The position numbers were made by a program, and so were the translations under genes. Positions 1-46,811 of a stretch of DNA of 64,000 nucleotides are shown in pieces (position 1 is the stretch's first letter; every line of letters starts with the position of its first letter). Below the pieces are notes generated by a model, which made no database searches, had not been told where the DNA came from, and saw only the letters and a list, made by a program, of their open reading frames with translations. This DNA is from Azolla caroliniana. Lineage: Eukaryota > Plantae > Polypodiophyta. Where the stretch lies: NCBI GenBank assembly GCA_043228905.1, contig JBHGNT010000002.1, positions 5,890,001 through 5,954,000 on the forward strand. The letters are read 5' to 3'.

Positions 1-182
1 AACCAAGTAGAATTTCTAGTCTATGTCATTTCCTTAGGAGGCATCTCCATGGATTCAGCTAAGGTCAAAACATTGGTAAAGTGACAGACTCCACGTTCGT
101 TGCGAGATGTGCAATGCTTTTTAGGATTTGCCAATTTTTAGCGCAAGTTCATACAGGATTACTCAAAGCTTGTTCTGCCTCT
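1..182 (+). mobile_element. Ty3/gypsy pol fragment (RT end), left half of the site interrupted by the Sola-like element
   Basis: Reads QVEFLVYVIS...DVQCFLGFANF*RKFIQDYSKLVLPL; the frame resumes at 16238 (TQLTRKGQLFIWSQEADMAFESLKKGFTSAPILAHVD). Confidence 0.9.
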
Positions 183-219
183 AACACGTTCGCGTTCACA
201 AGTGGAAGGATCTAGAGTC

Positions 220-2914: not shown

Positions 2915-3067
2915 GGCTTAAGGTCCACATAGAGCTCTTTAAGTTATGTGCTTAGGCTAAGGCAAAAAACTGATAAGCTCCACTCTAAACATAAACTCCT
3001 CTCTAAATAGAAGCTCCCTCAATATAATGTCTATATTATTTAATATTATATTAATACAATACATAAA

Positions 3068-3630
3068 TTTTAGGAACTACAACGTTCCTTATGCGCAACA
3101 CTCGGCCACAACCGAGCTAAGAATCATACACAGAAAACGGGAAATGAAATGCATGACACAAAGAAGAGACGAGTGCACAGGATGTTTACGTGGAAAGCCC
3201 AAAGAGGGAAAAACCATGGCAGCCCACAGGCTGAAAACTATCACTATGCTAGAATGTACAACAGTGAGTTCACGGAGGCAACGACTTCGTGCTCACGATC
3301 CTCGCCACAGGCGGTGGTTACAACAGAGGCAACAACCTCTCTCTCTCTCTCTGTACACAGTTACACGCACTATCTCCTTCCACCAACAAGAAAATGACAA
3401 CAACTAACAATTACCTAAAGGTTTGCCCTAAGTCATATTTATACTAATATGACTTTTCGGCTATTTACAAATATAGCCTCGATGGGCTCTCAGAAACATA
3501 TTTACGAATATGTCTCTTCATCTGGTGAGCATTCCTCACCGGGTCTGCACCATCCGGCTCTTCGTAGCCGGGTACTCCTCATCCGGTTCATACCGGGTCT
3601 GCACCATCCGGAGGGACTTGTCTCCCAACA
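3068..3630. mobile_element. Solo LTR between the two divergent genes
   Basis: Ends ...TCTCCCAACA; perfect ATAAA TSD (3063-3067 and 3631-3635); same family as 27414-28198. Confidence 0.85.
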
Positions 3631-4165
3631 ATAAAAAATATTATTTTTAATATAATAATTGTATTCAACATATTAATAATTACTTAAACTAGTCTGTATG
3701 AAGTTAAATCAAGTATAATATAATTACAATCATTACCAAGCCATATATATGTTGGATTAAAGTTAAAATCATTGGTTAATTAATGGCACCCATATTTAAT
3801 ATAGAACTTCTCAGTCATTGGTTCATTCATGCCGACCATTTTAAATATAAGACTTTTCAATCATTAGTTCATTCATGCCCACATCTTTAATACAAAGCAA
3901 TTAAGAGTCATAAAAATGTTGCTTTCAATAATCAATCATTGGTTCATTCATGAATCTCTATCATTGTTTCCTTCATGACCTTCAAAGTCATTGTAAGTTA
4001 TTTTGACTATAAAATATTCATCAATATGTTAGTTTAACTTTGTAATCATTGATGCAATCATAAGTAACTCTGGTTAAAGTGACTGTGGTTACTAACTAAC
4101 TAACCTCAAGCTTGCCAACCCTGGTAAAACTGACTGTGGTTACTTTAACCACTGTGGTCAATCCC

Positions 4166-4173
4166 TATAAATA
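4166..4173 (+). promoter_or_regulatory. Putative TATA box of the ParB-MTase gene
   Basis: CCCTATAAATAGG about 120 bp upstream of ATG 4291, preceded by repeated TCATTGGTTCATTCATG-like motifs (about 3770-4060). Confidence 0.55.
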
Positions 4174-4372
4174 GGAAGACCTCATCATATTTCAGTCGCG
4201 CGAAACACAAGACTACACAGAGCAAACAGAGCATACAGAGCACGAAGCACGAAAGCGAGATCTCCGCCTAAAAATCGACAAATAGCAACCATGTCTTCAA
4301 AGAAAGTCGAGCGCCAAGACTCCAAGTAACCCTCTAACACTATGGACATTTTTGTAAATATGTTTTAGCATC

Positions 4373-4926
4373 AGGAACTCGATACAGCGTATCGAGTTCT
4401 TGTGTGAAGTGTAGGTTTTATTCAAGAACTTGATACGTGATATCGAGTTCCTGTTTAAAGTGTTTGTTTTAAAGAGGAACTCGATACGCCATATAGAGTT
4501 CCTATATTATGTTTGCGTTTTAAACATGAACTCGATACGCTGTATCGAGTCCCTGTATAATGTTTGTGTTTTATAAAGTTGTTGTTTTAAAGAGGAACTC
4601 GATACGCCGTATCGAGTTCCTGTATAAAACACAAACATTATACAGGAACTCGATACGTTGTATCGAGTTCCTGAATTATGTAACACTTTTACAGAGGAAC
4701 TCGATACCACGTATCGAGCTCCTGTATTATGTTTGTGTTTTATACATGGACTTGATACGACATATCGAGTTCTTGTATAAAGTTCCTGTTTTATACAGGA
4801 ACTCGATACACTGTAACGAGTTCCTGTGTAAAGTATGTGTTTGATACACGAACTTGATACCCTGCATCGATTTCATGTATAGACACAAACTATATACAGG
4901 AACACGAGATAGCGTATCGAGTTCCT
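4373..4926. repeat. Array of 11 palindromes GGAACTCGATAC-N3-GTATCGAGTTCC, about 52-bp period, in intron 1
   Basis: Read directly; linkers are related AT-rich variants. Remnants occur in copy 2 at about 43290-43560. Confidence 0.92.
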
Positions 4927-7900
4927 ATATAAAACAAGAACTTTAAAGAGGAATATTATCGATTTGGGGCAACAATTTAGTATTGTGTGAAAAGATATCA
5001 AACTTGATGTCAAAATCAGTCTTTTTTTAGGGTGATTTGCCTAATTTTGTAAGCAATAGGGGCCTTAATTATAGAGGTTTTATGACCTAGTATAGCTTTA
5101 AATAGTAGAAAATAACCCACAAATTACCTTTACCATACCAAACTCAAGTCTATCATATGCAAATTCTCTAGAATATGGATATGGAATCAATATAAGCCAT
5201 ACCTACCCTTCAAGACAATATATATCCTTGTATACTTATTAAGATATATATTTTCTAAGTTGAATAGCCCTTACTAGAATGGATTTCTGAATAAAGGACT
5301 ACCATGTTCACTCAATGCATGATTGATATTTATAGTTTACCACAAATCGCCTGCTAGTTTATGTCTTCATCTAATTATTTGTATTTTAATATACAACCTT
5401 AATCTATGTGACCACCTAACTTATGTTTTCGCATGTCCTTTTTTAAATAGGTCGTTTGAGAACTTGTCGGACCGACTTGTGAAGAAGATAAAGCTCCGCA
5501 TACAGGGTTCTCCAATTGAAACACAAACCCTAATAGCTCCCGAGAACATGAAGAGAGGAAAAAAGCTTCTCTTCAACGAGGAGACAAAATCTCAACCACC
5601 CATTGAGGTTAGCCAAAAGAAACTATTAGTAGCTACTGGTGGTGAAGACCTTCCTGACCGTGATCTAACCGACAAGGAATGGTGTATGCAATATGTCAAC
5701 TCCAAGAAAAAAGTCGTATTGTATACATCAAAGAAGAAGGGCGAGCGGCAGCTTGAAAATGAAAACCCATTTATGTATGGCCGTATTCTCCGATTTGACT
5801 GCGAAGATGCAGATTCGGCCAACATACTTGTAATGATAGAGTGCTCTAAGGGGGTACGTAAAGTGTTCCTTTCCGAAGATCTTTTAGTAAAGGAATCTTG
5901 TGGGCCAGAAGCTTTCAAAAAAGATCTAGAAAGCTCACAAAACCTTATTGTTACCTTGAGGCCTTATATACAAGGCCATGTAACTCTAAGGGAGCCATTG
6001 TCCTCCCCAGTGAAGGCCACAAAAAGGGCATCTAAAGTACAATCAAGACCACCAAAATGTCGGACTCTGACTCATCAAGTGAAAATGAAGATGAGGACAC
6101 TAAGGGGACGCCAGGAGCTGAGTTGGCATCGGGTGTGTTATCATCCGAGTAGAATAAGATACGAAGAGAGTTAATGCAGCGTAAACTGGTAAGGAAAGGG
6201 CAAGTGTTTAATTTGCCTATAACACACATCCATCAGCCCCCTATTGATGAAAAAACAGGACGAATACCACTTGAGATTAGAGAGCCACACCAAAGGCATG
6301 TTCAAAATCTCAAGAAAAAAATGAAAATTAATCCTCATGCTACCGTTGTGCCTTTTATTGTTATGGTGGATCCTAAAGAATGTGAAACCATTGAAGATTT
6401 TGATATAAGAAAGCATGATCAATATAATTACTTTGTCATTAGTGGATCACATTCAGCGGAGGCACGTTGGCAACTTGTGAGAGAACATCCAACGACTTTC
6501 TTCTTCAAGTATGCCGAGTGCAAAATTTACGTGGGTCTCACAACTGAAGAGGCAAAGCTGTTGGCATGGGACCACAATAATGATAATGACTATAGGCAAA
6601 AAATGTTATTGATTGAGCGTATAAGGTTCTTCCACCACGAGTATTTGGACGTCAAACAAAAGTTTGGTGTGAAGTTACATCCAGGCCTACGATGTCAATA
6701 CTTGCATGAAGTCGGCATTGTGGTAGATGATAATGTTAAGTCCGATGGTCCTCGAAAATATGAGTCTTGGTTTCAATTGGCCTTTAGAGATGGAGAAGAT
6801 CAAATCTTCTCAATGTGGGAGAATAAGGAGGTCAAGGGTCAACGACAAAAGAAATGTAAGGTTGACCCACAATTAGAATTAAAGTCACAAGCGGCCAAGA
6901 AAATTGACTTGACAATTGAAGAAGCGGCTGACGACATGAAGCTGTCTCTGTGGAGAGCAATGCAAGGTATTAAGGACGAGCAACTTCTTGTGTCTGTTTT
7001 GTCAAGGGTTGTGTCCAAAGATTTAAGCCTTGAAGAAATGGTGATTGACTTCAATAAGTCTTTCAAATACCGATATTGAAGTCTATATGGTGCAATTGGA
7101 AGTTCTAATCTCGTTTTCTAATTTCACAGTCATAAGGTGTACATGAAGATCCAAGAAGTTATGATGAAACAACTTGGATGTATAACTTGGGAACAAGTGA
7201 CCGAGGATTATCCTCTAACTTCTTCATATAAGGCGTTATCAGAGTATTTTATTGCATTCAACGATTGGGTTAGTATTGGTGGTTTTTCATTAAGTTTTCA
7301 TCATATGTAGAGCTTGTATAATAAAACTTGATGTCCTATTGCTTCTATTAGAAACCGTGTCGTGGCAAGAAACAAGGAGAAGTTAAGGATATACATGATT
7401 TCCCAACATCCTTCCTTGCACATCTCGAGAGAGTCAGAAAAGAAAAGGATCGTTGCTTAGTCAAGGCGTACGAAATGGAGGAAGATGGCTCCTTCAAAAA
7501 ATTTAGCCACAAAAAAGATATTACGAGAGATCTTTACTACAATGTGGTTTGCGGCGATGTCATTGACATCATCCAAAAAGTGCCAAAGAAGGAATATACG
7601 CTAATGATTGCGGATATTCCTTACGGATTTTGAATGGTAGGGTCATCATACGACGATGAACCATTTAGGTTTAAACAATTGGAGAAGATGGTCAAGGATT
7701 TTACTGAGCTAACGACTGCATCCTTGTGGAGAATAGTTGTCCTTCATAGTATGGACCAAGGGTACTCGATAGCTCAAGCTTTGAGATCTCGTTTCCATGG
7801 CATCGAGAACCTTGCATGGTAAGGATTATTTATAGGTCCCATTCACTATATTGCCTTTCTTAAGATTGTTCAATCTATTCTTAACTCGATGTAATATTTT

Positions 7901-7971
7901 TTATAGGATAAAAACCAATGTAAATAGAGGGCCAAGCTTTCAGTTCGTTAATGCGATTGAATGCATCACGG

Positions 7972-8853
7972 TGTCGTGAAGAATGTGCTTCACGATATAA
8001 AAATGAGCTTAAATGTTGTATTTAATAATATTTGAGAGACTTGAACCCACATCCTTATATACGATGTACAATGTACATACCACTAGGCTAGGCTATTTGT
8101 AAAAGTGTGTAATAAATGTGCTTCATGATATAAGAATGAAGCTATATATTGTATTAAGTAAAATTGAGGGACTTGAACCCTCAACCTTGTATACCAAGCA
8201 CCAAGCATACACCACTAAGCTAGGTTAGTTATTTTAGAATGCATTTTCATCATTATACTTATCCCATATCTATTTTCATACATAGCCATCATTCATCACA
8301 TGCAATGCATGTGCACCAAATGGTGATCATGCATTACATGTAACTCATGCATTGCATGCATGCCATGCTCCCATACATTACCATATGCATGGCAACACTT
8401 ATATAAAGAGGGGAAAGGGAAAACAAGGTAATGAATCAAGGGAGAGTGAGAAAATAATATAATCAAGTAAAGAAGACTAGCTCATTGGGTGGAGAACCTC
8501 TCGTTTCGAAGTTGAGGTCGTGGGTTCAAATCAAGGGTCGATAGAGAATGTGTTCAGTTTGCGATCAAGGATTGTACTTTTAATATACATTGAATGTTTA
8601 TATCATATACTCTTGTTCCTTGAATCATACTTTGTCTCAATCTTCTATCTTGAATCATACATTGTCTCTATCTTTTATCTATGCTCGTCTCTCTCTCTCT
8701 CTGACACATACACACATTACTCGTAACTCTTCTTCTTACTATCCTTAACCATTCTATCATCACCATACAAGCCTTATTAAAAGTTAAGTTTCTTCAACTC
8801 CCCTTAACCTTAGTCCCCGCGACTTCGCCGCACGAACCACAACTACCTCGACA
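7972..8853. mobile_element. Solo LTR (gypsy-type) inserted in MTase exon 5
   Basis: TGTCG...CGACA ends with ACGG duplication; removal restores ...ECITVGYFDE... in frame. Confidence 0.85.
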
Positions 8854-9939
8854 ACGGTTGGCTACTTTGATGAAATTAAGAAACAAAGAATCAAGGAGCA
8901 TTCTAATGAAGTGGGAGGTTCAAATCTGCTAGTATATCCAGCAGTGACACGGAAATTGCGACATGTCACCACGACAAAACGGGGACTTGTCAACCCATTC
9001 CAAAAACCTCAACGACTTATGATGCGCTTGATCAAAATATTTTCTATCGAAGGAGACTGGATATTAGATCTCTTTTTTGGCACAGGTATTCCTCGAACTA
9101 GGGTAACGATCTTGAGATAACCAATACCGAATCTTTTTTGTTTGAGAACTAATTCTTTTTGTTACTTTCTTCATAGGAACGACGTCTACATGTGCATTGA
9201 AGCTCTTTAGAAACACAGTTGCATTGGAGAAGGACGAGGAGGAGGTTATATTTATAAACATGAGGATTAAGGCTTTGTGGGAATGCCCAGACCAGGACGA
9301 GGAGGTCGGTGCAAAGAACCTCACTGATACAAAAAGGTTTCACCCTGCTTCGTGAGAGCCTATTCCCCCGCTAATAGATATTTCTTTGGCTCGGCTAACA
9401 GGGGAAGCCAATGCACGTATAGCCAAAAAGACTTCTACAGGATGATGAAGAAAATGACATTGATGATTTGATTGCTATGTAATGGACTCTATGAAGAAAA
9501 TGACATTGATGATTTGTTTGGATTTCACATTATTAATACAAATTTTGGGTTTTACTTGGTGGATTCTATTCTTTATAATCTTCTATATGTTTCAATTTTA
9601 TTTTTATATACTTGGTTAGTAGACTTATGACATTGGTTTCACCGCGTGCATAGTTGACTACCAAATTTATGGAGAAACATGAATTAGTTTAAATTGAGGT
9701 TGATTTTGGGCCAAGTTTACCTTAACATAACATGGTCGTAGAATTGTTTCTATGACTGTCCATGTTGTTATTATGGATCTTTGTCTTCTATTGTTAAAAC
9801 TATTATGTTTCTATTCCATTGCTGCTTAGATTTTGTAGTGTGTTGATAATGGTTCCACTAGCGTTATCCGCATGTTTTTATACGCTTGTAGTACCACTAG
9901 CGTTATCGTTCGGAGTTTAATCCCGTGTGAATCTCTCCT

Positions 9940-10195
9940 AAGCAATAGAGTAGATCAATTTTAAATACAAGTATGAAAGCCTTAATAGGTTTGTTATTTC
10001 CACCACATTATCCTAAAGTTCACTGTCTTACATTGTCCACAATTATATACATATGGTTTGATCCCATATGAACAAACTGAGGAATAGATGAGATCAACTT
10101 TAAATACAAGTATTGAATGCTTTAATAAGTTAGTTATTCCAATCACATTATCCTAAAGTGCACTATCCTACATTGTCCACAATTATATACATGCA
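9940..10195 (+). repeat. Two copies of an approximately 110-bp direct repeat downstream of the MTase gene
   Basis: AATAGA..AGATCAA..AAATACAAGTAT..CACATTATCCTAAAGT..CATTGTCCACAATTATATACAT occurs twice. Confidence 0.75.
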
Positions 10196-10415
10196 AGTAT
10201 GGGTCAAAGTATAAATTATAACTCATTTTATTAGTATGGTTACAAGTACACCTCATATTTTTGTAAAACTTACCAAATTAATATAAGTCTTTAACTTAGT
10301 GTTTCCCATGTCGCACATTAGTGACATACTGAGCCATTGTTGAACTTTATTATGCCTACATTAACTTATCAACACGTCCAAACTTGCATGATTTCTAACG
10401 ATCTCCACTCGTAGA

Positions 10416-13400
10416 TGTTGAGAGACAAGCTCAACATCGGCCGGATCGGTTGAGCAAGCCGAGGACTGAATCGGTTGGGACTGATCGGTTAGGCCGGACC
10501 GGTGCGTAAAACAGATACGCAAACCAGTGCGTAATGAGAGGCCATATCGGTGCGTAAACCGAAAGGCCGTTAGAGAGATATTCCTCGTAAGGAATAGTTT
10601 TGGGAGTAAGTGTCGAGGCTCATTTATGAGCAGTCAAGTACTGTCAGTACTTGTGTCAGCCCGATTGTCAGGGCTTATATAAAAGGTGCTCACTGAGCAC
10701 GGTGTATGTATCGAGAGTTAGTATTTTTTGAATTGAGTTTTTTGTGTGTTCTCTCCCTGTCTCTCCCACGTACTACGTATACTCAAGCTCTCCATTAAAC
10801 CTGCGTATTTTTTGTGTGTTTGGTTTTCTATTGCTTCCGCACATAATCTTTTACATGGTATCAGAGCACAAGGGTTGAGAACCTCTGCAACCGACATAGC
10901 TTGAAAGAAAAACAAACAAGACGAACATGCAAAACCGATGGATAGAGGCATGGCTAGCTCGCTTCCAACGAAGAAGCTCGACAAAAACAACTACGCGTTT
11001 TGGTCTTACAAGATGCACCAGTACCTGCTCGGACACGGTTACTGGAGGTATGTCGATGGAGCAAATGAGATAGCACCCGATTCGACACACAAAGACTTCC
11101 CGGCGTGGGAACAATTGGCGAATAGAATGTTGTACTGTTTCGCTTCTTGTGTGGGCGAACAACTATTAAGATACGTTCGGGATGCAAAAACACTAAAGGG
11201 TGCGTGGGAAAATCTAAAGAAGTTCTTCGCCGCGAGCACCACAGCCAGGAAGCTTCAGCTCCGACAAGAGTTGAGCAACCTACAACAACGCGATTTGTCG
11301 GTGGCTCACTATACCTCGAAGATCAAGGACATATGTGACTCCTTAGCTTCCATCGATGTGAACATCGAGGAAAGCAAGATGGTCCAAGTCTGTCTCGGGG
11401 GTTTGGCGCCAAAGTTCGGAGCGTTCCGAACTACTGTGTGTACACGGGAGAATACGTCGTCGTTTTTTGACTTACAATCAATGCTCCTTATAGAGGAGAA
11501 CCATGCGGGTGCGTCGACAAGCATGCATGCTGACAGCAAGATATTGTACACGGAGGGAGATAGGCCCTGTGGTCGTGGCGGACGAGGCGAGTCGGTACGC
11601 AATGGAGGCGGCTGACGGGATCAAGGAAGAAGGCACCGAAGTGATGCTGACAGCAATTCCGGACCCTTCGGAAATAGGGGGAGTCGAGGCGACAAGAACC
11701 GGCAAGGGAAATCCGTTGCGGAATCTTGGTACTGTGGAGAGCGAGTACTTGAAAAAGCGCGTCGATTCGGAGAGAACCAGGTCCGGAACAGGTTCCGGAC
11801 AGACCGACAAAGGAAATCAGCAACGATCACACTACGCCAAAGGATCCGGAGAAGCCGGAAAAGGGTCTGTCTTCGTGACGAGACATGAAGCAAACTCCAT
11901 GAAGAAGATCACCCCGAAGTCGGAGGAGGTGTGGTACGTCGACTCCAGCGCGTCAAACCACATGACGTGCCACGAGGAGTGTTTCTCATACCTTGAGAAA
12001 CTGACGCAACCAAGAGTAGTCGCAACCGGAGACGATACTTCGCATCCAGTCGCAAATGTTGGTGAAGTTTCCTTGAGCCATGTCGGGCAGAAAGGGAAAC
12101 TTATGAACGTGCTACACGTCCCAACAATCATGAAGAATTTGGTGTTGGTCGGGCAGATCATCGACCAGGGGATGCAAATCTAGTTCACGCATCTCGGGTG
12201 CTTCATCGAGGAAGAAGGCCGAGTTATTGCGCAAGGGCGCAGAGACGGGAGGATATTCATCCTCGACTCTACTGACGGTGGCACCGCAATGTTCACGAAG
12301 GGACAAAAAGTCGAGTCGGACATCGACCTATGGCACAAGCAGATAGGCCACGTCAACTACCAGCGGTTTCAAGACCTGCAATCGAAACAGGTGGTGTTCG
12401 GATTGCCCAAATTTAGTGGCCGGAAGGCAAAAATTTGTGAAGTCTGCCAGCTTGGGAAGCAACACCGACTTCTTTTCCCCAACGAGCGTAACCGGAGCCG
12501 GAACAAGCTCGACTTGATACACTCCGATGTGTGGGGGACGACACAAAAAGTTAGTCTTGGCGGGAGCTGATATTTCGTCTCCTTCATCGACGACTACACG
12601 CGGCACACGTGGATCTACCTCATTGAGAGGAAGAGCAAAGTCTTCGACTGTTTCTGAGACCTCAAAGGGTTTGTGGAAACAGAAACAAGGAGAAAGATCA
12701 AGTGCCTGCGGTCGGATGGTGGAAAAGAATACTTTTCCGGTCAATTCAACGGTTATCTACAACATATGGGAATTCGGCGCGAATTCAGTTGTAGATACAC
12801 GCTGGAGCAAAACGGCGTGGCCGAGAGGAAAAATCGGTCAGTTGTGGAAGCGGCACAGCCAATGTTGGAGGAGAAGAGCTTGCCCAACTTCTACTGGGCC
12901 GAGGCGGTAAGGACTGCGGTATACATTCAGAACCGGATCGGAGACAAAGTGTCGGCCCATGAGCAGTACTTCGGAAGGAAGGCGAATCTACAAAACTTGA
13001 GAGTTTTCGGTAGCATTGCATATGTGCATGTGCCAAAGGAGAAATGGAGGAAACTGGATGCAAAGGCCGAGAAATTTATCTTGGTCGGTAACTCGGACGA
13101 GCAGAAGGGTTATAAGTGTTATAACCAGCGCACCAAACAACCGCGCGTGAGCCGCGATGTTGTGTTTGATGAGTCCACATCCTGGTACTTGCCTCTGACT
13201 CCAAACCTCACCTCCAATCTGAGTTCTGACGATGAGGTCAGCAAGACTGAGATGCCTCCGGATGAGCCTGAAATCAGGACCCGTGAAGAGAGTCCGATTT
13301 TGTTTCGGTTAAGTGGACCGAATGGACGACTGAGTCGGTTTGACCAGTCCGATGAAGAGCCGACGACTAGTGGAGACTCGGTCGTGCATTCCCCACGCAG

Positions 13401-16072
13401 GAAGCCGAGGAGATGGCTTACTCACAAAGAGAAAGGGAAGAAAAAGGTGTCGGATTCCGACACGGATGGGAAGCGGTGACGGGTCTTCAAGAGTGAAGTC
13501 CGTGTCGGTCGAGAAGACCTTGACATCGGCTAATGACCGATTACACCGATCTACCCGCCAGAAGAACCCAGTTGTGTGGTTCGGATACAACGAGTACATG
13601 GCGCATCATTATGCGTACATGACCCGTGTAGCATAAGTGCGTGAGCCGGAGAGCTACGCAAAAGCGGCTAAGGACGCGAATTGGTGCGCCGCGATGGAGG
13701 AAGAGATGCATGCATTGGTGGAAAACGAGACCTGGGACCTGATTGACGCACCGAAGGGTGTGAAGCCGATCGGATGTAGGTGGGTGTACAAGGTCAAGTA
13801 CAACACAGACGGCTCGGTCAACCGATACAAGGCCTGGTTAGTGGCAAAAGGCTACGCGCAGAAACACGACATCGACTACAATGAGACGTTTGCGCCGGTC
13901 GCGAAGATGACGACCGTCCGTGTTTTGCTCGCGATAGCTGTGGCAAAGGGGTGGCACTTACATCAGATGGATGTAAAGAATGCGTTCCTACAAGGTGAGC
14001 TTGAGGAACAGGTGTACATGGTATAGCCCCCCAGATTTCACTCCAGAACGAACACGTCTGCAGTGTGCCAATTGAAGAAGTCCCTTTACAAACTAAAGCA
14101 AGCCCCACGTGCCTGGAACGCGAAGATTACGCAGCAAGTGCGTCGATGGGCTTTGCAATGTCAAATTCGGACTCTTCCCTGTTCATCCGGAAAGGTCGAC
14201 TCGGTCCGGTCAGTATTTTACTATATGTTGATGACTTGGTCATCACCGGCGCCGACCTAGGTGAAATCGACCATGTGAAGCTCCAGCTTGCGGCATCATT
14301 CGACATGAAGGATTTGGGGCATCTTCATTACTTCCTCGGGATAGAAGTGATCCATACGCTTGAAGGCATATTGATCAGCCAACGCTATTATGTGCTGAGT
14401 ATGCTCTTGAAATTCGGGATGGCCGACTGTAAGTCTGTCTCGACTCCTCTGGATAGAACCATCAAGCTTCGCCCCAATTCTAGAGAGGTATGCGACCCAA
14501 TGAGGTTCCGACAAATTGTCGGAAGCCTTATCTACTTGACAATCACCCGGCCCAATCTCAGTTATCCGGTCGGGGTGATTAGGCTGTTCATGGCGCGACC
14601 TACCGAGGAGCACCTTTAGTGTGCGCAACGCGTACTGCGGTATGTAAGCGGCACTAAGGACCGAGGACTACTATATTGGATTGGTACAACCTTACAGTTA
14701 GTCGGCTACACCGATGTTGATTGGGTTGGCAATGCCGCCAATCGACGATCCATGTCCAGATACGCGTTCTCTCTTGGGAGTGCCGCGATAGCGTGGAGCA
14801 GTAAGAAGTAGCTGACAGTTGCACTATCGAGTACCAAAGTTGATTACCGAGGAGCGGGTGTCATAACATGCGAAGCCATATGGTTGAAGCGACTACTTAA
14901 GGACCTGCAAGAGGAGGTGTCCGATCCGACGACGATCTACTATGCCAACCTCAACAGCATCCAGCTCGCGAAGAACCCTGTTTTCCACACACGGACCAAG
15001 CACATTCAGGTGCACTACCATTTTGTTCGTGAGCGTGTCCTTTCTAGTGAAGTCGAACTTCAGTATGTTCCGACAGATCGGCAAACTGCCGACATCTTCA
15101 CCTAGCCCCTTGGTCTGGACAAGTTGCGGCAATTTTCGAGTGCGCTTGGGTTGCGTCACCTCAACGTGGCAAACTTGAGTGGGAGAACAGTCTCAAAAGA
15201 CCGAGCAAGGGAGTAGGAAAGGAGCGGAAGAGCCCGCGACACCAAGTCGGAAGAGTCCAAAAGAAGACATAAGGGGAGCAGTCGAAAGAAAGAGCCGAAG
15301 CCAACCAAGCATGGGGAAGATGACGCCGTCAAGGGTGAGAAGATCGAAGACGAGTTGGAGACAACCAACTCGGACCAGAGCGAAAACCGATCAGAGGTAG
15401 CCGAGTCGGTTCAGATGTTTGATTCGGATACATTGAATCAACCAAGGGCCAAGCGGAAAAGAAGGCAACAGGAGAAGCGCCAACACCGCGACAGCAAAGG
15501 AGCTGTGAAGGGCCATGGGAGCAGACAAGCCAACTGGAAGGGTCAAAGCGCACGGAGTCGAACAGGCCAAGGAGCGCGAGTGAGGCATGGAGTCAGGAGG
15601 AACCGAAGCAGTGATCCGGAAGATCTCGAAGAGCCTCAAGTTGAGCTTGAGGGGGAGTGTTGAGAGAAAAGCTCAACATCGGCCGGATCGGCTGAGCATG
15701 CCAAGCACCGGATCGGTTGGGACCGATCAGTTAGGCCGGACCAGTGCGTAAAACAGATACGCAAACCGATGCGTAAACCGAAAGGCCATTAGAGAGATAT
15801 TCCTCGTAAGGAATAGTTTTGGGACTAAGTGTCGAGGCTCATTTATGAACAATCAAGTACTGTCAGTACTTGTGTCAGCCCGATTGTCAGGGCTTGTATA
15901 AAAGGTCCTCACTGAGCACGGTGTATGTACAGAGGGTTAGTATTTATTGAATTGAGTTTTTGTGTGTTCTCTCCCTATCTCTCCCGCGTACTGTGTATAC
16001 ACAAGCTCTCCATTAAACCTACATATTTTCTATGTGTTTCGTTTTCTATTGCTCCGCACATAATCTTTTACA
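10416..16072 (+). mobile_element. Full-length decayed Ty1/copia element nested in copy 1
   Basis: LTRs 10416-10855 and 15658-16072; PBS TGGTATCAGAGC (10856); PPT GAGGGGGAG; TSD GTAGA/ATAGA; gag, WYVDSSASNHM protease, integrase, RT (LLYVDDL), RNase H. Confidence 0.95.
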
Positions 16073-16237
16073 ATAGACCTATCATGTATTTTTATATTTG
16101 CAAATTCTAATCAAGTTGTGGAACATGTGATACTAGTGCATCCAATTTTCATAGAGAGGGTATATTTGGATAGTTTCAAGAAGATTCTACAAGTGGAATG
16201 CGCAATCCTTCCACTTGTGAACGTGAACGTGATTTGT

Positions 16238-37600: not shown

Positions 37601-38866
37601 ATCTCCTTGACGCAATATTTGGATTTTATTGATTGATGTCCTAACACTAGTGATATCTCCAAAATATGCTTTAAACTCACTAATAAACTCCTCGAAATTA
37701 TTTAGCGAAGGAGATCCTTTTTCTAACAAAGGGGTGAACCATGGTAACGTTGTACCACTAAGTAATGTGCCTACTAGCACCACTCGTGATGCATCGGTGG
37801 GATATCGAGAAGGATGCATTTGGATCACCAAGCATACCTGATCAAGGAACCCTTTGAATTGTGATGGCGTTCCATCAAATTTCACGAGGAGACCAATCTT
37901 GCGCTCTTTAAGGATTCCTTGAGTATTTGGTTCTTGTTGTTGTAACAACATGATCTTTACTTCCAGCTGTTGCACTATTAATGCCAACTCCCCATGTTGT
38001 TGTTGTGTTTTTTGCTTTTCTAAAGTGATTTCTTGAAGATCTCCAACAACCGTGGATTTTCTTGTTCCAATGCTACGAACTTTTCCTTCAAGCTCCGAAA
38101 AGACAGATTGGCATTCTTGTGCGGTTACAATTGCCATTTAACACTAATGGAAGGATCGATAAGAGGACTAATATTAGAGGAAGGGAGGATAAGAAGGTAT
38201 TTGGTTCAAATTGTCCTAAATAGTACTAGAGATAGAGAGGAGGGAATGATTGAAAAAATCATGAGAGAGAGAAGGAGAGAGAGATAGGGTGTGGAAGAGA
38301 GAAATATGATAACAAGAAGTATATTATGTGAAGAGGAGTACAAGGATAGTTAATGCTTAGAACTAGCGTTCAATTGAATTGGTTTTGAATAGTGCCATAT
38401 GCCTCAAACACGTTCGCATTCACAAGTGGAAGGATCACGCATTCCACTTATAGATTGCTTTTATAATCTTGCGATTTTAGGCAGTTTTCAAAAACTTGAT
38501 ACATCAGTATCACATGTTTTAAATAACATATAAAATTTGCTGTTTTTTAAAGATTTAACAAGTGTCAAAATGATAATTTCTAAAATTGAATAGTTTTTCA
38601 ATAAATGTTTAAATGTTGACGGTTTGCATATATGAAATCTAGTTAACTTAAAGAAAATCACAATGGTTAACTCAAGGCACAAGTTACGATTAATGGTTTC
38701 ATCATCTTGAGAAGATGTAGGTTCAAGAAGTGGAAGTGACATCAATTGGTATACTTGAAAATGTTTTAAGTATAAGAGGTAACCCTATAATCCTTAGTGT
38801 CATCATTTATAAATTTAGTGCTCATCAACATCCACAAATTCACAACTCAAGAAATGTAAATTTCTC

Positions 38867-38922
38867 AAGACCTTGGCACTGATGAGCTCTACCTAGAGCG
38901 AAACTAGTTTGCACAAGGTCTT
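38867..38922 (+). ncRNA. Minimal type I hammerhead ribozyme
   Basis: Stem I AAGACCTTG-GCA / TGCACAAGGTCTT; CTGATGA; stem II GCTCT-ACCT-AGAGC; GAAA; palindromic mini stem III ACTAGT; GTT cleavage triplet. Confidence 0.82.
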
Positions 38923-39420
38923 TCTAATGAAAATTTCTTAAGCTTTTCTCTTTTCTCACTCACTCTTCTCTTCTTCTTTCATCTCATTCTCTCATTCTCT
39001 TTTACTCTTGGTCACCTCTAATCCTACTCACCTTAGTTTCACTTGCATCATTGCTTTATTTCTTTTCTTACTCTTCCCATATCATCTCAATAGTTGTGCT
39101 AGTTCGCTCGCACTCCTTGTCACGATCCTACGGTCATAGCAACAATTTTGATAAATTCACAACTCCAAAAATATAGACAATATTCATAAATTGTGAAAAC
39201 TATCAAACTTAGATGTAAGCATTAATATATCAATTTGAGCATATCACATAGTTATCAGGGTATCCACACTGCTCTTCTCTTCTTCCTTTTGAGAACTCCC
39301 CTACAAAATTTATGCAATATTATCTACTCCACATAAGCTAGCAATGATAGGGTTCTCCAATAGTTTGTTGACAAAATCAATAAGTTCCTTAGGTTCACCA
39401 ACTAATGTAGGAATATGTTT

Positions 39421-42118
39421 TGTCAGGATCAGTACTAAGGCAGAGAAGGAATTAGTACTAAAAGATGAGGATTAGTACTAAGAGAGGTTTAGAACTCTCG
39501 AGAGAAGGAAAGAGCGAGTGAGAGAGAGAGATAGAGAGAGAGAGAAAGGGTGAGAGAATGATGATAAAAGATAGGGAGTATACACTAGTAGCTAGGAGGC
39601 TTAAGACAGGCATTGAACCGATTTGGTTCAAAATAATGCCTTGTGAGTGTTCTCAGGAGTACTCCTGAAGTTTCTAGAATGTTCCAGAGAAATCTAGAAG
39701 ATACATCAATTTTCTATAATAAAACATAAATGAAAATAATATTCTACGTATTACAATGTGTGGTCTAATGGTCAAGAGCTTGACCCATGTAGCATAAGGT
39801 CATGGGTTCGAGTCTTGCCATATCATGACACTATCGTCCCTTTAAAACGATGAGTGTCACGAGTCGTTTTGGATTGAGACCCCGTTTGTCTATATATTGA
39901 CAATGGAAGTCGTCAAGAAGAGCACGAGCATTAGTCACATTCTCTATCGGTTCCCAAGTACGCTCATTGGGACTATATCCTAGCCAATCGACTAGATAGT
40001 AGAGCTTGTTGTGAACAATCTTGGAATCAAGGATGGCGGCAACCTCGTACTCAAGTCCATCTTCAAGCTCGATCGGGGGTGGAGGCTATGTAATATGTTC
40101 TGGGATGGTGCTTTCTTGATAGGGTTCGAGGAGAGAACTATGAAACACCGAATTCCATCTTCAAGCTCGATCAGGGGTGGAGGCTGTGTAACACGTCCTA
40201 GGATGGTGCTCTCTTGATAGGGTTCGAGGAGAGAACTATGAAACACCGGATGTATCCGAAGTTGTAGAGGTAGATGGAGATGAAAAGTGACATCATTAAT
40301 CTTTCCTATAATATGGAAAGGACCTAATCGCCGATAATCCAACTTCTCGCATGGGCGAGTAGTCTTGATGTGTCATTGTAGTAGCCATACCCGATCTCCA
40401 ATGTTAAAACTAGATGGAAGTTGATGTCGATACGCGTAAACCTTGTGTGTTTGTTGAGCTTGTTGGAGATCAGTAGATAAATCTGCTTGTATCTTGCGTA
40501 ACTGCTCTAAACGATCCTCTACGCAAGAATTTGTGGACAACTCTGGGGTTTCAAATACACACCACCGGGGGTGACAACTTGTATAACCATAAAATGGCGT
40601 AACTTTAGTCGATGCGTGGACAGAGTTATTATAGGCAAATTCGGCGAAGTGGAGAATATTTGCCTAGTGATCTTGATGATAGCTTAGAAAGCACCGAAGA
40701 TACTGCTCCATCGTTTGATTTGTTCATTCTGCTTGGCCATCGGTTTGTGGGTGGTAGCCGGAGTAGAGGTTACAAGTGACCTTGAGCATTTTAAAAAAGT
40801 GCTTCTAGAATTTCGATACGAGCTAGGGTCCACGGTCGTTGATGATACTATCGGGAAGGCCATGATGCCGACATCCTTCACGCATGACAATTTCAGCGGT
40901 TTCTTCACTGGAGATTTCCTTAGTACATGGCAAGAAATGAGCCATCTTCGTATATCAATCTACGACTATTAGAATCGCATTGAACCCGTTAGAGACTGGA
41001 AGATCTATGATGAAGTCTAGATTACCTACTTTTGGTTATCAAAACCTGGCTCGCCAGGACGCGGTGCTAGGTACGAACGCCGTGATAATGCATCTGCCTT
41101 CTCTTGGTGCTTCCCCGGACGATATGTAATTTTGAAGTCGAAATGCGTGAGGAAGTGGGCCCACCAAGCTTGACGTCGATTTAACACACGAGCATCCTGA
41201 AAGTAGGCAAGGTTTTTGTGGTCAATGAATACGGTGACTTGATGAGTGGATCCCTCTAGAAAATGCCTCCATTGCATAAAATAGTCCACTATTGCCAATT
41301 GCTCCTTATCATGAATTTCATAGTTGATTTTGCCGGCGTCAAACTTGCGTGAGTGAAAAGCTACAGGATGTAGCTTCTCATCACTACCCCATTGTGACAG
41401 AATGCTCCCCAATGCGAAATCCTGTGCATCTGCTTCGATAATGAATGGTTTTTCCGGATTGACATGAGCTAGAATTGGAGCCGATGTAAATGCCTTTATG
41501 TTGTCAGTATCTCCAAAACAGGCTTTAAACTCACTTATAAATTCTTCAAAATTGTTTAGTAATGGAGATTCTTTTTCTAACAGCGGAGCGAACCATGCCA
41601 ACGCTGAGCCACTTAACAACGTGCCTACTAAACCCACTCGAAATGCATCGGTTGGATATCGGGAAGGATGCATTTGAATAACTAGTCGTACCTGATTAAG
41701 GAACCCTCTAAACTGCGATCACGTTCCATCGAATTTCATGGGAAGGCTGATCTTGGGTTCTTTATGAATCCCTTGTGTTCCGGGTCCTTGTTGTTACATC
41801 ACTACAATGGTTGCTTCGAGTTGTTGCACACGTAACGTCAGCTCCCCGTGTTGTTGTTGTTTTTCTAGCATTATTTGTTGAAGATCCCCCAACAAACGGT
41901 GATTTTCTTGTTCTAGTACTACAAATTTCTCTTTTAAGCACTAGAGCTCCGAGAAAACAGGTTTCCATTTTACTAGGGAGGATAAGAGGATTAGTATGAA
42001 AGGAAGAAAGGGGTAAGAAGATGAGGGAAACCGAAAAGAAGACCGGAAAAAGGGGATATGTAAGAAGATAAAAGGAAGAGGAGGAAACGGAAGGAGGATG
42101 GAAAATCGGTTCAAACTG
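39421..42118 (-). mobile_element. Deleted gypsy chromovirus nested in copy 2
   Basis: 3' LTR 39421-39830; chromodomain EYEVAAILDSKIVHNKLYYLVDWLGYSPNERTWEP; integrase; ORF 41026-41673 is a gag/RNase H deletion fusion; 5' LTR absent. Confidence 0.9.
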
Positions 42119-43020
42119 CTCGTCGTCCTTTTTAAGTGCAACAATATTTTTGAATAACTTCAATGCAAATGCAAATGTAGTACACATTAACAATTAAAAA
42201 TGAAAAGTGCTTTAGCTAAACATAAGCTATATTGATTTCTGAAGGCATAGCAAACAAAGTTATAATAATTTACCCGAGCCGGAGAACAAATCTAGTATCC
42301 AATCTCCTTCATTGGAGAACATTTAAAATGACAATTATCAATATTAAGTAGAATGTATTGATGGGAAAAAATCAAAACTCTCCATGTAATATAAATATTT
42401 CTTACTAAGCAAGGTTTTCTATCCCATGACAATGAGATCTCAAGGCCTATGCTATAGAGTATCCTTGGTACATGCTATGGAATACGATAATTCTTCATAA
42501 GGATATTGTTTGTGCAAAATCTTTCACCATCTTCCCAAGTTATTTAAACATAAATGGTTCATCATCATATGTTTATCCAACCATACAAAATCCGTATGGT
42601 ATCTCAATAATCAATAATATGTACTCCTTTGTTGGCAATATGTGCATCATCTTAGCCACATCACCAGAATAGACATTATAGCATAAATCCTAGGTGATAT
42701 ATTTTTTGTGGCTAAATTTCTTAAAAGTGCCACCATCTTCTACACCGTATGCCTTCACTAAACGGTAGTTCTTTTCTTTCTATGCTCTTTCAAGATGTGC
42801 AAGAAATGATGTAGGAAAATCAAGAATATCTTTAACTTCTCTCAATATCTTATTATCACTATCTTGGTATATCATTGTTGAACAATTTTTCTTTGCTCTC
42901 TGACTATACATGGCTTCTTCACATTGAGCAGATTCTAAAGGCGAGCCTCGATTATTCAAACAAATTTTCTTGACCATACACTCATCCTGATTTTCAGTTG
43001 ACCTTGTAGGTGCAAGATAA
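42119..43020 (-). pseudogene. Remnant of the ParB-MTase gene in copy 2
   Basis: EVKDILDFPTSFLAHLERA..YNVYSGDV..EYILLIIEIPYGF..HGIENLA; MFSNEGDWILDLFSGSG; ALKLFKNIVALKKDDE. Two splice donors are at the same positions as in copy 1. Confidence 0.88.
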
Positions 43021-43779
43021 AAAAATATAGAGAAACTCAATTATATGAACCAATAAGTAGTTTCTAACAACTTAGATGTTTAAAGACAGCTTAACTCTAG
43101 AAAAAGGCTCTAAATGCCAAAAAGAGACATGTAGATATGAAATATCGCAAAAATTAATGAATTTTTGTTAAATAATATGCAAAAAAAACACTAAATAGTG
43201 CAGTAAAAACACTCCCATCAATCAATTTTTCTAATGGGAAATCCTAGAAAAAATAGAGAATATTTGTGAAAATATACAATTTATTCAGAAACTCGATAAT
43301 TTTAATAGTAAAATAGAGATTTCATAGTACAATTCGATACAATATATTGAGTTTATGTTATTTTCCCATAAAAAAACCCAAACAATTAAAAACAAATATT
43401 TAAAAAAAAATTTACTTTAAACATGAACTCAATACATTGTATCAAATTGTGATGAAAACTCTACATTTTATATCAACTCGATACAATGTATCGAGTTTAT
43501 GTATAAAAATGTTCTTTTTTATCAAATAAAAAAGAACAATTTTAAACATGAACTCACATTGTACTAAAATTTCTATTTTTACAAGAAGTATGTTGCACAC
43601 CAAGATACCTTATGGTGAATATGTTCTTCATTGGTCAACAAAAAACCATTAATAATTGTGTTGATGGTAATTGAACCTTGCAAATGTCGTTTACATGGTC
43701 TATAATATATTAGTGTGGTCTCAATCACCGCTTCAAGTACTTAATGGTGATCTCCATAGTTTGCTGAATCCATAACAGA

Positions 43780-44250
43780 GAAACATTTATGTGGAATTAA
43801 GGATGACAACACGAGCATAACTCAGGTGCTAAAGAAACTTGCAACAACTTAAGGTGGGGATATTAATAGCTACACATGCAGATGGCCATGATGTAGGTCA
43901 CAAATTCTGGATTGGTAAAGTTTTGGATGCGGTGATGCATTAAACCTTTGTAATACATCTATAATTGACATTAGTGAGGTGAATATCATTGTGTATGACT
44001 TTACATTGACAAAAGTTGGATGTTTAAGGAAGATAACAATAGACATAATAAAAGAGATATTACCAAGTCTAGAAAATGTCTCAGATTGAAGCCGAACAAG
44101 ATTTAGTGCACATAATTTTGAGACACCATTTGGTGAAGACAATGATTTGATTGGTACATTCGGAAATGAGGAGGAAGAGTCCCAATTGTATATTAGTTAT
44201 AGTAGCGATTCTCATGAAAGGAGTGATCGTAGTGATGCAAATAACTAGCA
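43780..44250 (+). pseudogene. Transposase C-terminal remnant in copy 2
   Basis: IYVELRMT..NLQQLKVGILIATHADGHDVGHKFWIGKVLD..DISEVNIIVYDFTLTKVG..TIDIIKE is homologous to ORF 335-811. Confidence 0.88.
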
Positions 44251-46811
44251 AATGTATTTTTTGTGCAACTATATGTAACAAATTTAGACAACATTTTATC
44301 GAATGATATAAAAAAGTTGATTTTTTGAAATCTTTTGCTTCTAAAATCCTTAAGATCTAAAAATGTATTAGTTGTCATTTTGCCTTAAAAATACACAAAG
44401 TTATTTTTCGTATTTGACAGAAATTTGGCATTTCTCAATTTTACCAAATGATGAAATTTTCAAAATTTTCATCAAGTTTTTGAGAGCATGTGATACTAGT
44501 AATAAGATGTTTTGTGAAATGGTAGAAAAAACCCCAAAATCAAACGGAATATTCCTTATCCTTCCACTTTTGAACAAGAACGTGTTCTCTATTTATAGTA
44601 TTATCAGGAGTATTCCTAAAATTTCTAGAATGTTCCAGAGTAATATAGAATATATATGAATTTTTTGTAATGAAATAAAAATGAAAATAATATCTTGTGA
44701 GTTACAATGAATAATATAATGGTATGGCCTCAACCCGTGTAATATAAGGTCATGGGTTCAACTCCTTTTGAGACCATATCATGATAGAGGGTTGTACACT
44801 CTTAAACCTTCGACCTCCATGATATGCCACCAGCACCATAGGTGAAGATTTATCCACCGCCTCCTAGTGCTTCTTTGTTGGGTTTGACATGTACCTACTC
44901 ATGACCCCTACAACATATGCAAGGTCAGGTTAGGTCACCACCATTGTGTACATGATGCTTCCTATGGTTGATGCATAGGGTATCTTTCCATTGAGCTTTC
45001 TCTCTACGTCGGTCGATGAAGAGTCTTTGTTCGATAGTCAAAACAACGTCGAAGCGAAGTTCTGGCTTCGCATTCTCCATGTTGAATTGCCTTAGCACCT
45101 TCCGGATGTAATCAGACTAGGAGAGCTGGAGGTCTTTGTTGTCCAATTTCTTGGATTCCTTTGTTGCTTCTGATGTGTCTATATACTCAGCCTCCATTGT
45201 CGATAGTGTCGTGCAATCCTGTAACTTCGACCTCCATAATATGGTGCCACCGTCGTTGGTGAACATGTAACCTAAAGTGGATTTCCGATTGTCGGGGTTA
45301 TCGGCATAATTGGAATCCATATAGCCTTCGACTTCGGTCGGATTGTCCGATCTGAAAGTCAGCTGCAAATCTTCTTCCTTGTAGGTACCTGAAGATGTTC
45401 TTCACATCTTCCCAATGCTTCCATCTGGGATAGGAGATGTATCAGTTGATGACCCCTATGACATTTGCAAGGTCAGGTTGGGTCACCACCATTGCCCATG
45501 AGACTTCCCACGGCCGAAGCGTAGGGTATTTGCCGCATGAACAATTTCTCCTCCTTTGTAAATGGAGAGTCTCTATCCGCTAGTTAGAGAGACTTCGGAA
45601 GTGGAGTTGGTGTCGTCTTAACATTCTCCATGTTGAAGTGCCTCAACACCTTTTGAGATGTAGTCAGATTGGGAGAGCCAGAGGGTCTTTGATATCTGAT
45701 GTCACTCTATTTGCATGCCCAATATGCATCGGGCTTGTCGCAACTCCTTCATGGTGAATGTCTCGTGAAGGCTCTATTTCAACTTCCGATTTTTGCTCGA
45801 TTGTTGCCTGCGATGAGCATGTCATTGACATATAGGATTAGATAGATCTAGGACTCATTGGCCAATTGCCAAATGTACATGCATGGGTCAAAGTCTGATT
45901 TGCTATATCCAAGCTGCCAGATGTAAGTATCAAATTTTTGATACCACATTCTTGGTGCTTGTTGTAGGCCATAAAGGGTGAAAGCATGAGAGTGGAAACA
46001 ATTAGCTATGTCCTTGACATAGCTAATTAGCTATGCAAAAAGCTACCATTGATAAATAGTCATTTTAGCAAAAAGCCATCAGTAATAAATTAACTATTCA
46101 AAAAACTACCATTGAAAATACTAGAGTGTTTTAATTACATATGTAAATGAGCACCATAAATGTGCAACATAAACGTGCAACATAAATTGATATGTGCACC
46201 ATAAATGTGTACCATAAATTATATATCGAATTCTTAGGTCCATTATGCATGATCCTTTGGCACATCACGTAGGCCATCTCTAGTTGAGTATTGTGGGTTA
46301 GTTGCTACCACTGTTGCTAAACCCTATCAAGTCCATCTGCCGCCACTCTACACTCAGGGGCCGCTATTGTGAAGGTCGTGTATTGCTGCCACTTTTTGAC
46401 CCGATGACGTTAACATCTCCACTGCCGCCATTCTACTCTCAATTGCCTTCTTTGTGCGTTCCAAGCATCATCGGTAACTGTTCCATTTGACGGGGTTCTC
46501 TCCTCCATTGCCATCATTCTACACTCAGTTTCCGCTACTGTCCAGTCATGGATTGCTTCCACATTTCAATTTGACGGAGTTCACTCATCCAACGGCAACA
46601 TTCTACACTCAGTTGTCGCCATTGGTTGGTCCTGGATCACCTCCTCAACTGTTCGATCCAACGGAGTGAACTCCTCAACTGTTCGGTCTTGGATTGCAAT
46701 AACTTTTCTGTCTATTGATTATCTTGTGTATTGTGGAATATTTTTGTGTATTGTTGTTGCCCATAGCCATCTTAAATACTTTTTTTTTTTCTGGAAATTT
46801 AGGGTTTTAAT

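What the first reader, a model, noticed from the sequence alone, without database searches (positions are those of the whole stretch)
38407..44586. Independent, diverged second copy shows the MTase travels with the element
The same TIRs, divergent gene layout, two shared splice positions and palindrome remnants recur at a different target (a gypsy LTR, beside its TATA box) in the opposite orientation. Many differences are synonymous or conservative (FFGTG vs FSGSG; FWVGK vs FWIGK). This argues for an old family with a maintained MTase rather than a one-off capture or segmental duplication.
Basis: seen in the sequence. Interest (0 to 1): 0.8.

Follow-up and report, generated by a model that had tools for sequence, protein, structure and literature searches.

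The report
Moss transposon carrying ParB-methylase gene
This is a dead, heavily deleted copy of a jumping gene, probably from a moss, whose intact relatives carry a conserved bacterial-type DNA methylase joined to a ParB-like domain that likely grips mirror-image repeats in the element and marks its own DNA; this design was described in algae in 2025.

Summary
Observation confirmed. 38407-44586 is a second, independently inserted copy of the element at 183-16233: same AACAC termini, a 4-bp target duplication, opposite orientation, in a gypsy LTR beside its TATA box. Between the copies dN/dS is 0.07 (methyltransferase) and 0.30 (transposase tail), and a tree rejects them as sisters (p=0.004). 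This copy is dead, though: it lacks both promoters, the transposase core and the ParB domain; DIPY has become EIPY; exon 4 has six stops; and 2.7 kb is a nested gypsy. The real proof comes from 80 metagenome loci. All 11 that are long enough carry the head-to-head DUF7869 transposase, 38 of 39 keep DIPY and DLFSGT, and 26 of 27 carry a palindrome array (GATRC-N3-GYATC) in intron 1. The N-terminal domain folds like ParB/Srx. Homologues occur in Chara, a liverwort, a lycophyte, ferns and Ginkgo. The design is in print for Ectocarpus Sola1-1_Ec32, and ParB plus repeat arrays for red-algal Plavaka, so this is a land-plant member of a known kind. Self-methylation through the array is inferred, not shown.

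The parts
38407..44586 (.). Copy 2: internally deleted, non-autonomous Sola1-like (DUF7869) TIR element; about 3.2 kb element-derived, the rest nested insertions
38407..38442 (+). TIR at the MTase end (AACACGTT...)
44551..44586 (-). TIR at the transposase end
38403..38406 (+). left target-site duplication CTCA
44587..44590 (+). right target-site duplication CTCT
44587..44786 (-). U3 half of the host gypsy 5' LTR, TATA box at 44597-44592 (outer end approximate)
   Evidence: sequence
38213..38406 (-). R/U5 half of the host gypsy 5' LTR, followed by gag from about 38140 (outer end approximate)
   Evidence: Ty3_capsid, DUF4939
38443..38858 (-). element subterminal sequence, aligns to L016
38859..39140 (.). 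282-bp foreign insert, absent from other copies in sequencing runs
   Evidence: joint 38858-39141
39247..39414 (-). tail of MTase exon 6 (reference codons 62-117)
39420..42115 (-). nested, internally deleted chromodomain gypsy element (3' LTR about 39424-39830, chromodomain, RNase H, gag start; 5' LTR lost)
42116..42181 (-). start of MTase exon 6; acceptor AG mutated to GT
42275..42322 (-). last 16 codons of MTase exon 5 with the SAM-binding motif (DLFSGSG; family DLFSGTG); donor kept; first 81 codons deleted
42405..42870 (-). MTase exon 4 with catalytic motif EIPY (family DIPY) and 6 stops; donor kept; left junction approximate
42870..43001 (-). first about 45 codons of exon 2 with the acceptor kept, fused to exon 4 by a deletion that removes the ParB-like domain and exon 3
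43280..43570 (.). remnant of the intron-1 palindrome array (GATRC-N3-GYATC at 43480, degenerate at 43431)
43581..44245 (+). C-terminal about 250 codons of the transposase, with stops and frameshifts; catalytic core, exon 1 and both promoters deleted
183..16233 (.). Copy 1 (comparison): near-complete but broken element; transposase on - at 221-2917, six-exon ParB-MTase gene on + from 4291 to about 9400, palindrome array 4375-4930

Best explanation
This is a dead, internally deleted copy of a Sola1-like cut-and-paste transposon whose intact relatives carry a conserved spliced gene for a ParB-fold domain fused to a beta-class DNA amino-methyltransferase, which likely binds the palindrome array in its own first intron and likely methylates the element's DNA (adenine more likely than cytosine) to help it escape host silencing. 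Shown: the anatomy, the independent insertion, purifying selection on both genes, their linkage, the conserved motifs and array, the predicted ParB/Srx fold, and the death of this copy. Inferred: binding to the array (by analogy with ParB/parS), catalytic activity, 6mA rather than 4mC (Asp, not Ser, in motif IV), and the anti-silencing role. History of this copy (inferred): a member of a subfamily separate from copy 1 lost three internal segments, was moved in trans into a gypsy LTR, then took a gypsy insertion and decayed mostly by C-to-T/G-to-A changes. My odds: identity and family-level maintenance about 0.93; the full self-marking mechanism about 0.45.
For: Selection: copy1-copy2 omega 0.069 over 175 MTase codons (dS about 2.4, saturated; LRT p=4.5e-25) and 0.295 over 155 transposase codons (p=7e-7); 0.018-0.026 between intact members L002/L013/L004. 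Linkage: 11 of 11 loci with more than 2.3 kb upstream of exon 2 carry the divergent transposase (two pairs are near-identical), and both genes split into the same three main groups. Motifs: 38 of 39 loci covering exons 4-5 have DIPY and DLFSGT, and 36 of 39 have no stop there; they form 27 groups at 93% identity. MTase class: PF01555; top PDB profile hits are beta-class MTases, two chains labelled adenine-specific DpnA (E 1e-14), then CcrM, MboIIA and RsrI, ahead of an N4C enzyme at 2e-5. Fold: AlphaFold model pLDDT 83; Foldseek top 10 are all ParB/Noc (E 8e-5 to 9e-4); VIA Z 10.4 to PadC (rmsd 2.9 over 100 residues) and 8.0 to sulfiredoxin. Array: 143 matches in 37,584 nt upstream of exon 2 against 9 in 208,054 nt elsewhere; present in 26 of 27 loci (19 groups; the miss, L013, is a contig that starts after the array). 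The core is fixed across clades whose synonymous sites are saturated. Mobility: 21 different flanks at TIR ends and a perfect TGTT duplication at L033.
Against: Nothing here shows activity, binding or expression. Motif IV is DIPY, not DPPY, and distant relatives drift to DAPY, DVPY, DLPR, DIPH and DIPS. The ParB-like motif reads GGSHSAEA, without the arginine of the ParB/Srx nucleotide-binding motif (the canonical motif is recalled). Array size varies from 1 to 15 exact units, and L042/L044 have only one although their gene is intact. Only 1 of 6 elements with both ends has a perfect 4-bp duplication; one has 3 of 4, one fits by length only, and L034, L042 and L051 do not match (possibly collapsed assemblies). 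Tree congruence holds only for the main groups, and L030 looks chimeric. The loci were fetched with a ParB query (best 80 of 165), so elements lacking the gene could not be seen.
Confidence: 0.55

Rival explanations
1. The accessory protein is kept as a DNA-binding regulator or scaffold for transposition, and its methyltransferase domain binds SAM or DNA but no longer methylates.
For: DIPY departs from DPPY, and distant relatives vary more. Inactive MTase domains are reported in DIRS1 retrotransposons (PMC4738411, passage).
Against: Asp, Pro, Tyr and FSGTG are kept in 38 of 39 loci, and omega is 0.02-0.03 across the domain. From known MTase chemistry (recalled), the first Pro contributes a main-chain carbonyl, which Ile also provides.
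Confidence: 0.2
2. The enzyme is active, but the palindromes are transposase-binding sites or the methyltransferase's own target, not ParB loading sites, and the mark tunes transposase expression or transposition rather than opposing silencing.
For: The array core contains GATRC, with an adenine on each strand. The array survives in copy 2, which lost ParB but apparently still moved.
Against: The array sits in intron 1, far from the ends, and half-sites are absent near the TIRs of 6 long loci. Its spaced dyad form with about 40-51 bp period suits a dimeric HTH protein, and ParB-fold genes with adjacent inverted-repeat arrays recur on unrelated transposons.
Confidence: 0.2
3. Copy 2 is a segmental duplicate of copy 1, or the MTase is a one-off captured fragment evolving neutrally.
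For: Both copies lie within 64 kb, and both follow GCCTC(T/A) on the + strand.
Against: Different targets, each with its own duplication; AU test rejects sisterhood; omega is far below 1; 11 of 11 linkage.
Confidence: 0.01

Closest known systems
Sola1-1_Ec32 of Ectocarpus (PMC12477816; passages and supplement rows read; figures not seen)
   Same: Sola1-type element with AAC...GTT termini (AACCG-CGGTT there, AACAC-GTGTT here), a 4-bp TSD, and an accessory gene on the strand opposite the transposase encoding a ParB-like domain plus an N4/N6 MTase (1104 aa there, 964 codons from exon 2 to the stop here). Its best transposase hit is listed as the moss element Sola1-1_PPa, and the authors propose self-binding and self-modification.
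   Different: Brown alga versus land plant; 21.5 kb with a 282-bp TIR versus 7.6-8.6 kb with a TIR of about 36 bp. The passages read give no selection test, catalytic motif or array for it. I could not align its sequences.
Red-algal Plavaka accessory genes PAG2/PAG3 (bioRxiv 10.1101/2025.02.11.637652; passages read; supplements closed)
   Same: Transposon-borne ParB-like protein beside tandem arrays of inverted repeats, proposed to bind and modify its own element; a PF01555 methylase on the same element.
   Different: EnSpm/CACTA-type transposase. ParB is fused to a 2OG oxygenase and the methylase to SET, in separate genes; here ParB and MTase are one protein on a DUF7869 element.
Physcomitrella Sola1 of Repbase (Bao et al. 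2009; not held; existence cited in PMC9033089 Table 1 and the Ectocarpus supplement)
   Same: Probably the same or a sister family (inferred from termini and the Ectocarpus best hit).
   Different: Not compared directly. I could not see whether those entries already annotate the second gene.
VANDAL/VANC anti-silencing of Arabidopsis (PMC5735166; abstract and passages read)
   Same: TE-encoded protein acting through short motifs arrayed in the element's introns and non-coding DNA.
   Different: Mutator-like element. VANC removes 5mC and has no amino-MTase or ParB fold, and its motifs diverge fast, whereas this core is conserved.
Marchantia DN4MT1 and bdelloid N4CMT (10.1101/2021.02.12.428880, PMC8885841; passages read)
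   Same: Eukaryotic beta-class PF01555 enzymes of prokaryotic origin.
   Different: Host genes with SPPY that make 4mC. This one is transposon-borne, ParB-fused, and has DIPY.

Membership tests
ParB-MTase-carrying Sola1-type elements (Sola1-1_Ec32 kind) | accessory gene with ParB-like domain plus N4/N6 MTase | tested here: met
   family level; copy 2 keeps only MTase remnants
ParB-MTase-carrying Sola1-type elements (Sola1-1_Ec32 kind) | accessory gene on the strand opposite the transposase | tested here: met
   11 of 11 informative loci and both window copies
ParB-MTase-carrying Sola1-type elements (Sola1-1_Ec32 kind) | AAC...GTT termini and 4-bp TSD not restricted to AWWT | tested here: met
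   AACAC termini at all ends but one (copy 1 right end reads ATCAC; L051 right end AACAT); TSD perfect in L033, 3/4 in copy 2, length only in copy 1, unmatched in 3 contigs
ParB-MTase-carrying Sola1-type elements (Sola1-1_Ec32 kind) | transposase homologous to that of Sola1-1_Ec32 / Sola1-1_PPa | not testable with these tools
   those sequences are not held; ours is DUF7869 (E 8.7e-48) with DGMD, QLDN and GHTHDHID motifs
Canonical Sola1 (Bao et al. 2009) | AWWT target preference, called a hallmark in PMC3845634 (passage) | tested here: not met
   CTCT, TGTT and 21 varied flanks; hence I write Sola1-like
Canonical Sola1 (Bao et al. 2009) | Sola1 DDD catalytic core by profile | tested here: inconclusive
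   no Sola1 profile on hand; Pfam DUF7869 and Atlas DUF7869 clusters only; motif likeness to Sola1 is recalled
Beta-class DNA amino-methyltransferases (PF01555) | catalytic motif IV N-terminal to the SAM-binding motif FxGxG | tested here: met
   DIPY in exon 4, QKP and FSGTG in exon 5; profile hits
Beta-class DNA amino-methyltransferases (PF01555) | (D/S/N)PP(Y/F) catalytic motif | tested here: inconclusive
   the family has DIPY (first Pro replaced) in all 39 loci covering exons 4-5; copy 2 has EIPY, so not met for this copy
Beta-class DNA amino-methyltransferases (PF01555) | methyl transfer to adenine N6 or cytosine N4 | not testable with these tools
   needs an assay or long-read modification data
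ParB/Srx superfamily | ParB/Srx N-terminal fold followed by a helical DNA-binding region | tested here: met
   (Z 10.4, rmsd 2.9, 100 aligned; the helical part matches KorB/SopB only at Z about 4)
ParB/Srx superfamily | nucleotide-binding GxxRxxA arginine (recalled) | tested here: not met
   GGSHS(A/T)EA in 8 of 8 loci shown, SGSHSAEA in copy 1; ParB-like fold, CTPase activity doubtful

The most novel reading that the evidence does not exclude
Seed-free land plants and Ginkgo carry an ancient transposon lineage with its own parS/ParB-style loading system: a ParB-fold protein binds a deeply conserved palindrome array in its own intron and writes 6mA (or 4mC) along the element. It would be a transposon-encoded source of bacterial-type DNA methylation in plants, and a self-marking counter-silencing device that could be tested in a moss.
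Probability: 0.4. Interest if true: 0.8.

Novelty: new member of a known kind. Interest (0 to 1): 0.5.

Why it matters
The algal reports proposed, from domain content, that transposons may bind and methylate themselves. This family adds what is needed to test the idea: many intact members, strong purifying selection, conserved catalytic residues, and an exact candidate binding site conserved across saturated clades, in a probable moss. It also points to an amino-methyltransferase family in land plants, which a 2016 survey described as having few N6A-MTases (PMC4738411, passage). The copy at these coordinates is only a relic; its value is as evidence of independent insertion and of non-autonomous spread.

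Tried and rejected
Sequencing runs: 11 of 16 listed hold part of the stretch, none half of its words, and no RNA holder was listed. Laying one guessed-RNA run, one run of unknown kind and one tiny run on copy 1 gave no joint at any predicted intron; this is no evidence on expression. I first read the joint 42115-39420 as an empty site and rejected that: it is the LTR-to-internal junction of other gypsy copies. Close relatives in viral contigs: 0 of 15 candidate stretches confirmed. In prokaryote genomes: 0 of 43. A profile search for prokaryotic MTase relatives returned only 7 hits from a truncated candidate list, so the donor is unresolved; PHROG hits (phrog_67, phrog_498) show only general kinship with phage MTases. 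Single-sequence folding of the ParB part failed (pLDDT 38). Pfam found nothing on the ParB part. Many deep pairwise dS values are saturated and meaningless; I rely on the moderate pairs and the simulation. The Mantel test (p=0.0005) reflects shared ancestry and is not independent proof of co-evolution. An RNA-hairpin reading of the palindromes is not excluded (arms mostly stay complementary), but fixed sequence and tolerated A-C mismatches favour DNA half-sites. A target preference for GCCTC was not seen in 21 other flanks. Literature: 10 searches found no paper describing this gene in a land-plant transposon; I saw listings and abstract starts, and read passages in 13 papers. Bao 2009 and the Current Biology version of the Bostrychia paper are not held; Iyer 2011 and Repbase were not looked up. 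Any of these, or the closed bioRxiv supplements, could already mention the moss case.
Full report
What is at the coordinates. 38407-44586 is bounded by 36-nt inverted repeats that begin AACACGTT. The same pattern occurs at only two other places in the window, the ends of copy 1 (183-16233), and never in 100 shuffles. The flanks, once joined, form one gypsy LTR, followed by a gag remnant. The insertion is 5 bp downstream of the LTR's TATA box, with a CTCA/CTCT duplication. Copy 1 interrupts gypsy RT sequence instead and leaves four extra bases at its empty site. The two copies are in opposite orientation.

The copy is a ruin. Against the intact locus L013 and the transposase of L007, copy 2 has three internal deletions. 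The first removes about 660 transposase codons with the catalytic core, both promoters, exon 1 and part of intron 1. The second fuses the start of exon 2 to exon 4 and removes the ParB-like domain. The third removes most of exon 5. Exon 4 has six stops and EIPY in place of DIPY, and the exon-6 acceptor is lost. A 2.7-kb chromodomain gypsy fragment splits exon 6, and a 282-bp insert lies near the left end. At invariant first and second codon positions copy 2 has drifted 10.7% (23 of 214 sites, 15 of them C>T or G>A) and copy 1 4.2%. Contigs of public runs that differ from copy 2 by 10-13% bridge two of the deletion junctions (records 5, 19, 22). This suggests that the deleted form was itself amplified as a non-autonomous subfamily; I could not count copies.

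Codon-model dN/dS between the copies is 0.069 for 175 MTase codons and 0.295 for 155 transposase codons, both significantly below 1 (codons with stops dropped; dS saturated for the MTase). Because methylation-driven transitions could mimic this, I simulated neutral change with CG/CHG hypermutation: synonymous codons made up 19% on average and at most 30% in 200 runs, against 54% observed. Copy 1 nests with L002/L009, copy 2 lies on a separate long branch, and their sisterhood is rejected (AU p=0.0036; 16 rows, exon 4, the group named after an earlier tree had been seen). The FFGTG/FSGSG example is misleading: both are private changes from FSGTG.

The family. A scan of metagenome contigs with the exon-2 protein found 165 relatives, of which the best 80 were returned. 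All 11 with enough upstream DNA carry a head-to-head DUF7869 transposase. Four hold both ends (L033, L034, L042, L051; 6.0-7.8 kb), and L033 has a perfect TGTT duplication while the other three do not match. Of 39 loci covering exons 4-5, 38 keep DIPY and DLFSGT. Named homologues of the accessory protein come from Chara braunii, Riccia sorocarpa, Diphasiastrum, Adiantum, Ceratopteris and Ginkgo. Named homologues of the transposase come from Ceratopteris, Adiantum and Riccia. I could not see the genomic context of those proteins, so their linkage is inferred. The host of the window is inferred to be a moss, from this distribution, the chromovirus-rich surroundings and the Ectocarpus paper's best hit to a Physcomitrella Sola1; no call names it.

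The accessory protein. The C-terminal half is a beta-class amino-methyltransferase, with best structural relatives among N6-adenine enzymes. Published usage links DPPY to N6A and SPPY to N4C, with the warning that specificity has switched repeatedly (PMC8885841, passages). The middle domain, modelled from 26 sequences at pLDDT 83, matches ParB, Noc, PadC, KorB and sulfiredoxin and phage ParB-like proteins, but lacks the usual arginine.

The array. Intron 1 holds repeats of a 23-bp palindrome, AANTCGATRC-N3-GYATCGANTT, at about 40-51 bp spacing. It is present in 26 of 27 informative loci, about 90-fold denser there than elsewhere (143 in 37.6 kb against 9 in 208 kb), and conserved across clades whose synonymous sites are saturated. 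Copy 1 has nine matches and copy 2 two.

How it likely works. By analogy with ParB on parS arrays (recalled; also argued for PAG3), the protein would bind its own intron and bring the methyltransferase to the element, marking it in cis and in sister copies. Nothing here shows binding, catalysis or expression. An inactive regulator (0.2) and a different role for the array (0.2) remain open.

Known or new. PMC12477816 describes Sola1-1_Ec32 with a ParB plus N4/N6 MTase gene opposite the transposase, AACCG termini, a 4-bp TSD and a moss Sola1 as best hit, and cites similar proteins in green and red algae. The Bostrychia preprint reports ParB-like genes beside inverted-repeat arrays. So the kind is known. 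My ten searches found no description in land plants, but the Repbase entries, Bao 2009 and Iyer 2011 were not seen. Earlier AI notes from this scan report the same design in an invertebrate and a moss-like genome; I did not test them and do not count them as support. Verdict: real, well supported as a family trait, a new member of a recently described kind; interest 0.5.

Noticed in passing
window 210-243: The left TIR of copy 1 is followed at once by a perfect 34-bp palindrome, and roughly 350-400 bp of subterminal DNA kept in copy 2 is missing; it looks like hairpin or template-switch repair.
   Followed up: partly
window 177-182 and 38401-38406: Both insertions follow GCCTC(T/A) on the + strand; this is not seen in 21 other flanks, so probably chance.
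   Followed up: yes
P0001 residues 235-542 (window 6153-7076): The ParB-like domain's nearest Atlas clusters are fungal DUF3723 proteins (score 0.96); from recall, DUF3723 is an accessory gene of fungal Starship elements.
   Followed up: no
intron 1 of L005, L016, L026, L028, L031, L033, L034, L040, L077: A conserved TGTACGGAC lies about 25-30 nt after the exon-1 donor (10 of 80 loci contain it; degenerate in copy 1, absent from copy 2); role unknown.
   Followed up: partly
window 43758-44134 and 335-720: The transposase C-terminal region (FWIGK...VHWY) is conserved and is the only part kept in copy 2; it may be a chromatin-reading beta-barrel (guess, not modelled).
   Followed up: no
L015:3280: An element of the L042 type is inserted in intron 5 of an L013-type element, so one subfamily nests in another.
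   Followed up: partly
L030:4033-6332: A transposase identical to that of L031 lies tail-to-tail behind an internal TIR: a tandem insertion or an assembly chimera.
   Followed up: partly
L034:11000-15300: Tandem and inverted repeats containing two tRNA-Thr genes flank the element.
   Followed up: partly
window 40053-40248: A 98-bp tandem duplication (92% identical) just upstream of the chromodomain of the nested gypsy.
   Followed up: no
window 38859-39140: The 282-bp insert is matched by several contigs of a guessed-RNA run whose loose ends hold a TATA-like stretch; probably a piece of another LTR.
   Followed up: partly
window about 51040-51400: A degenerate array with AAACCCT-like words, resembling interstitial telomeric repeats.
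   Followed up: no
P0027, P0127: Public gene models fuse this MTase to a cytochrome P450-like sequence (Diphasiastrum) or a retrotransposon integrase-like sequence (Adiantum); probably annotation artefacts of decayed copies.
   Followed up: no
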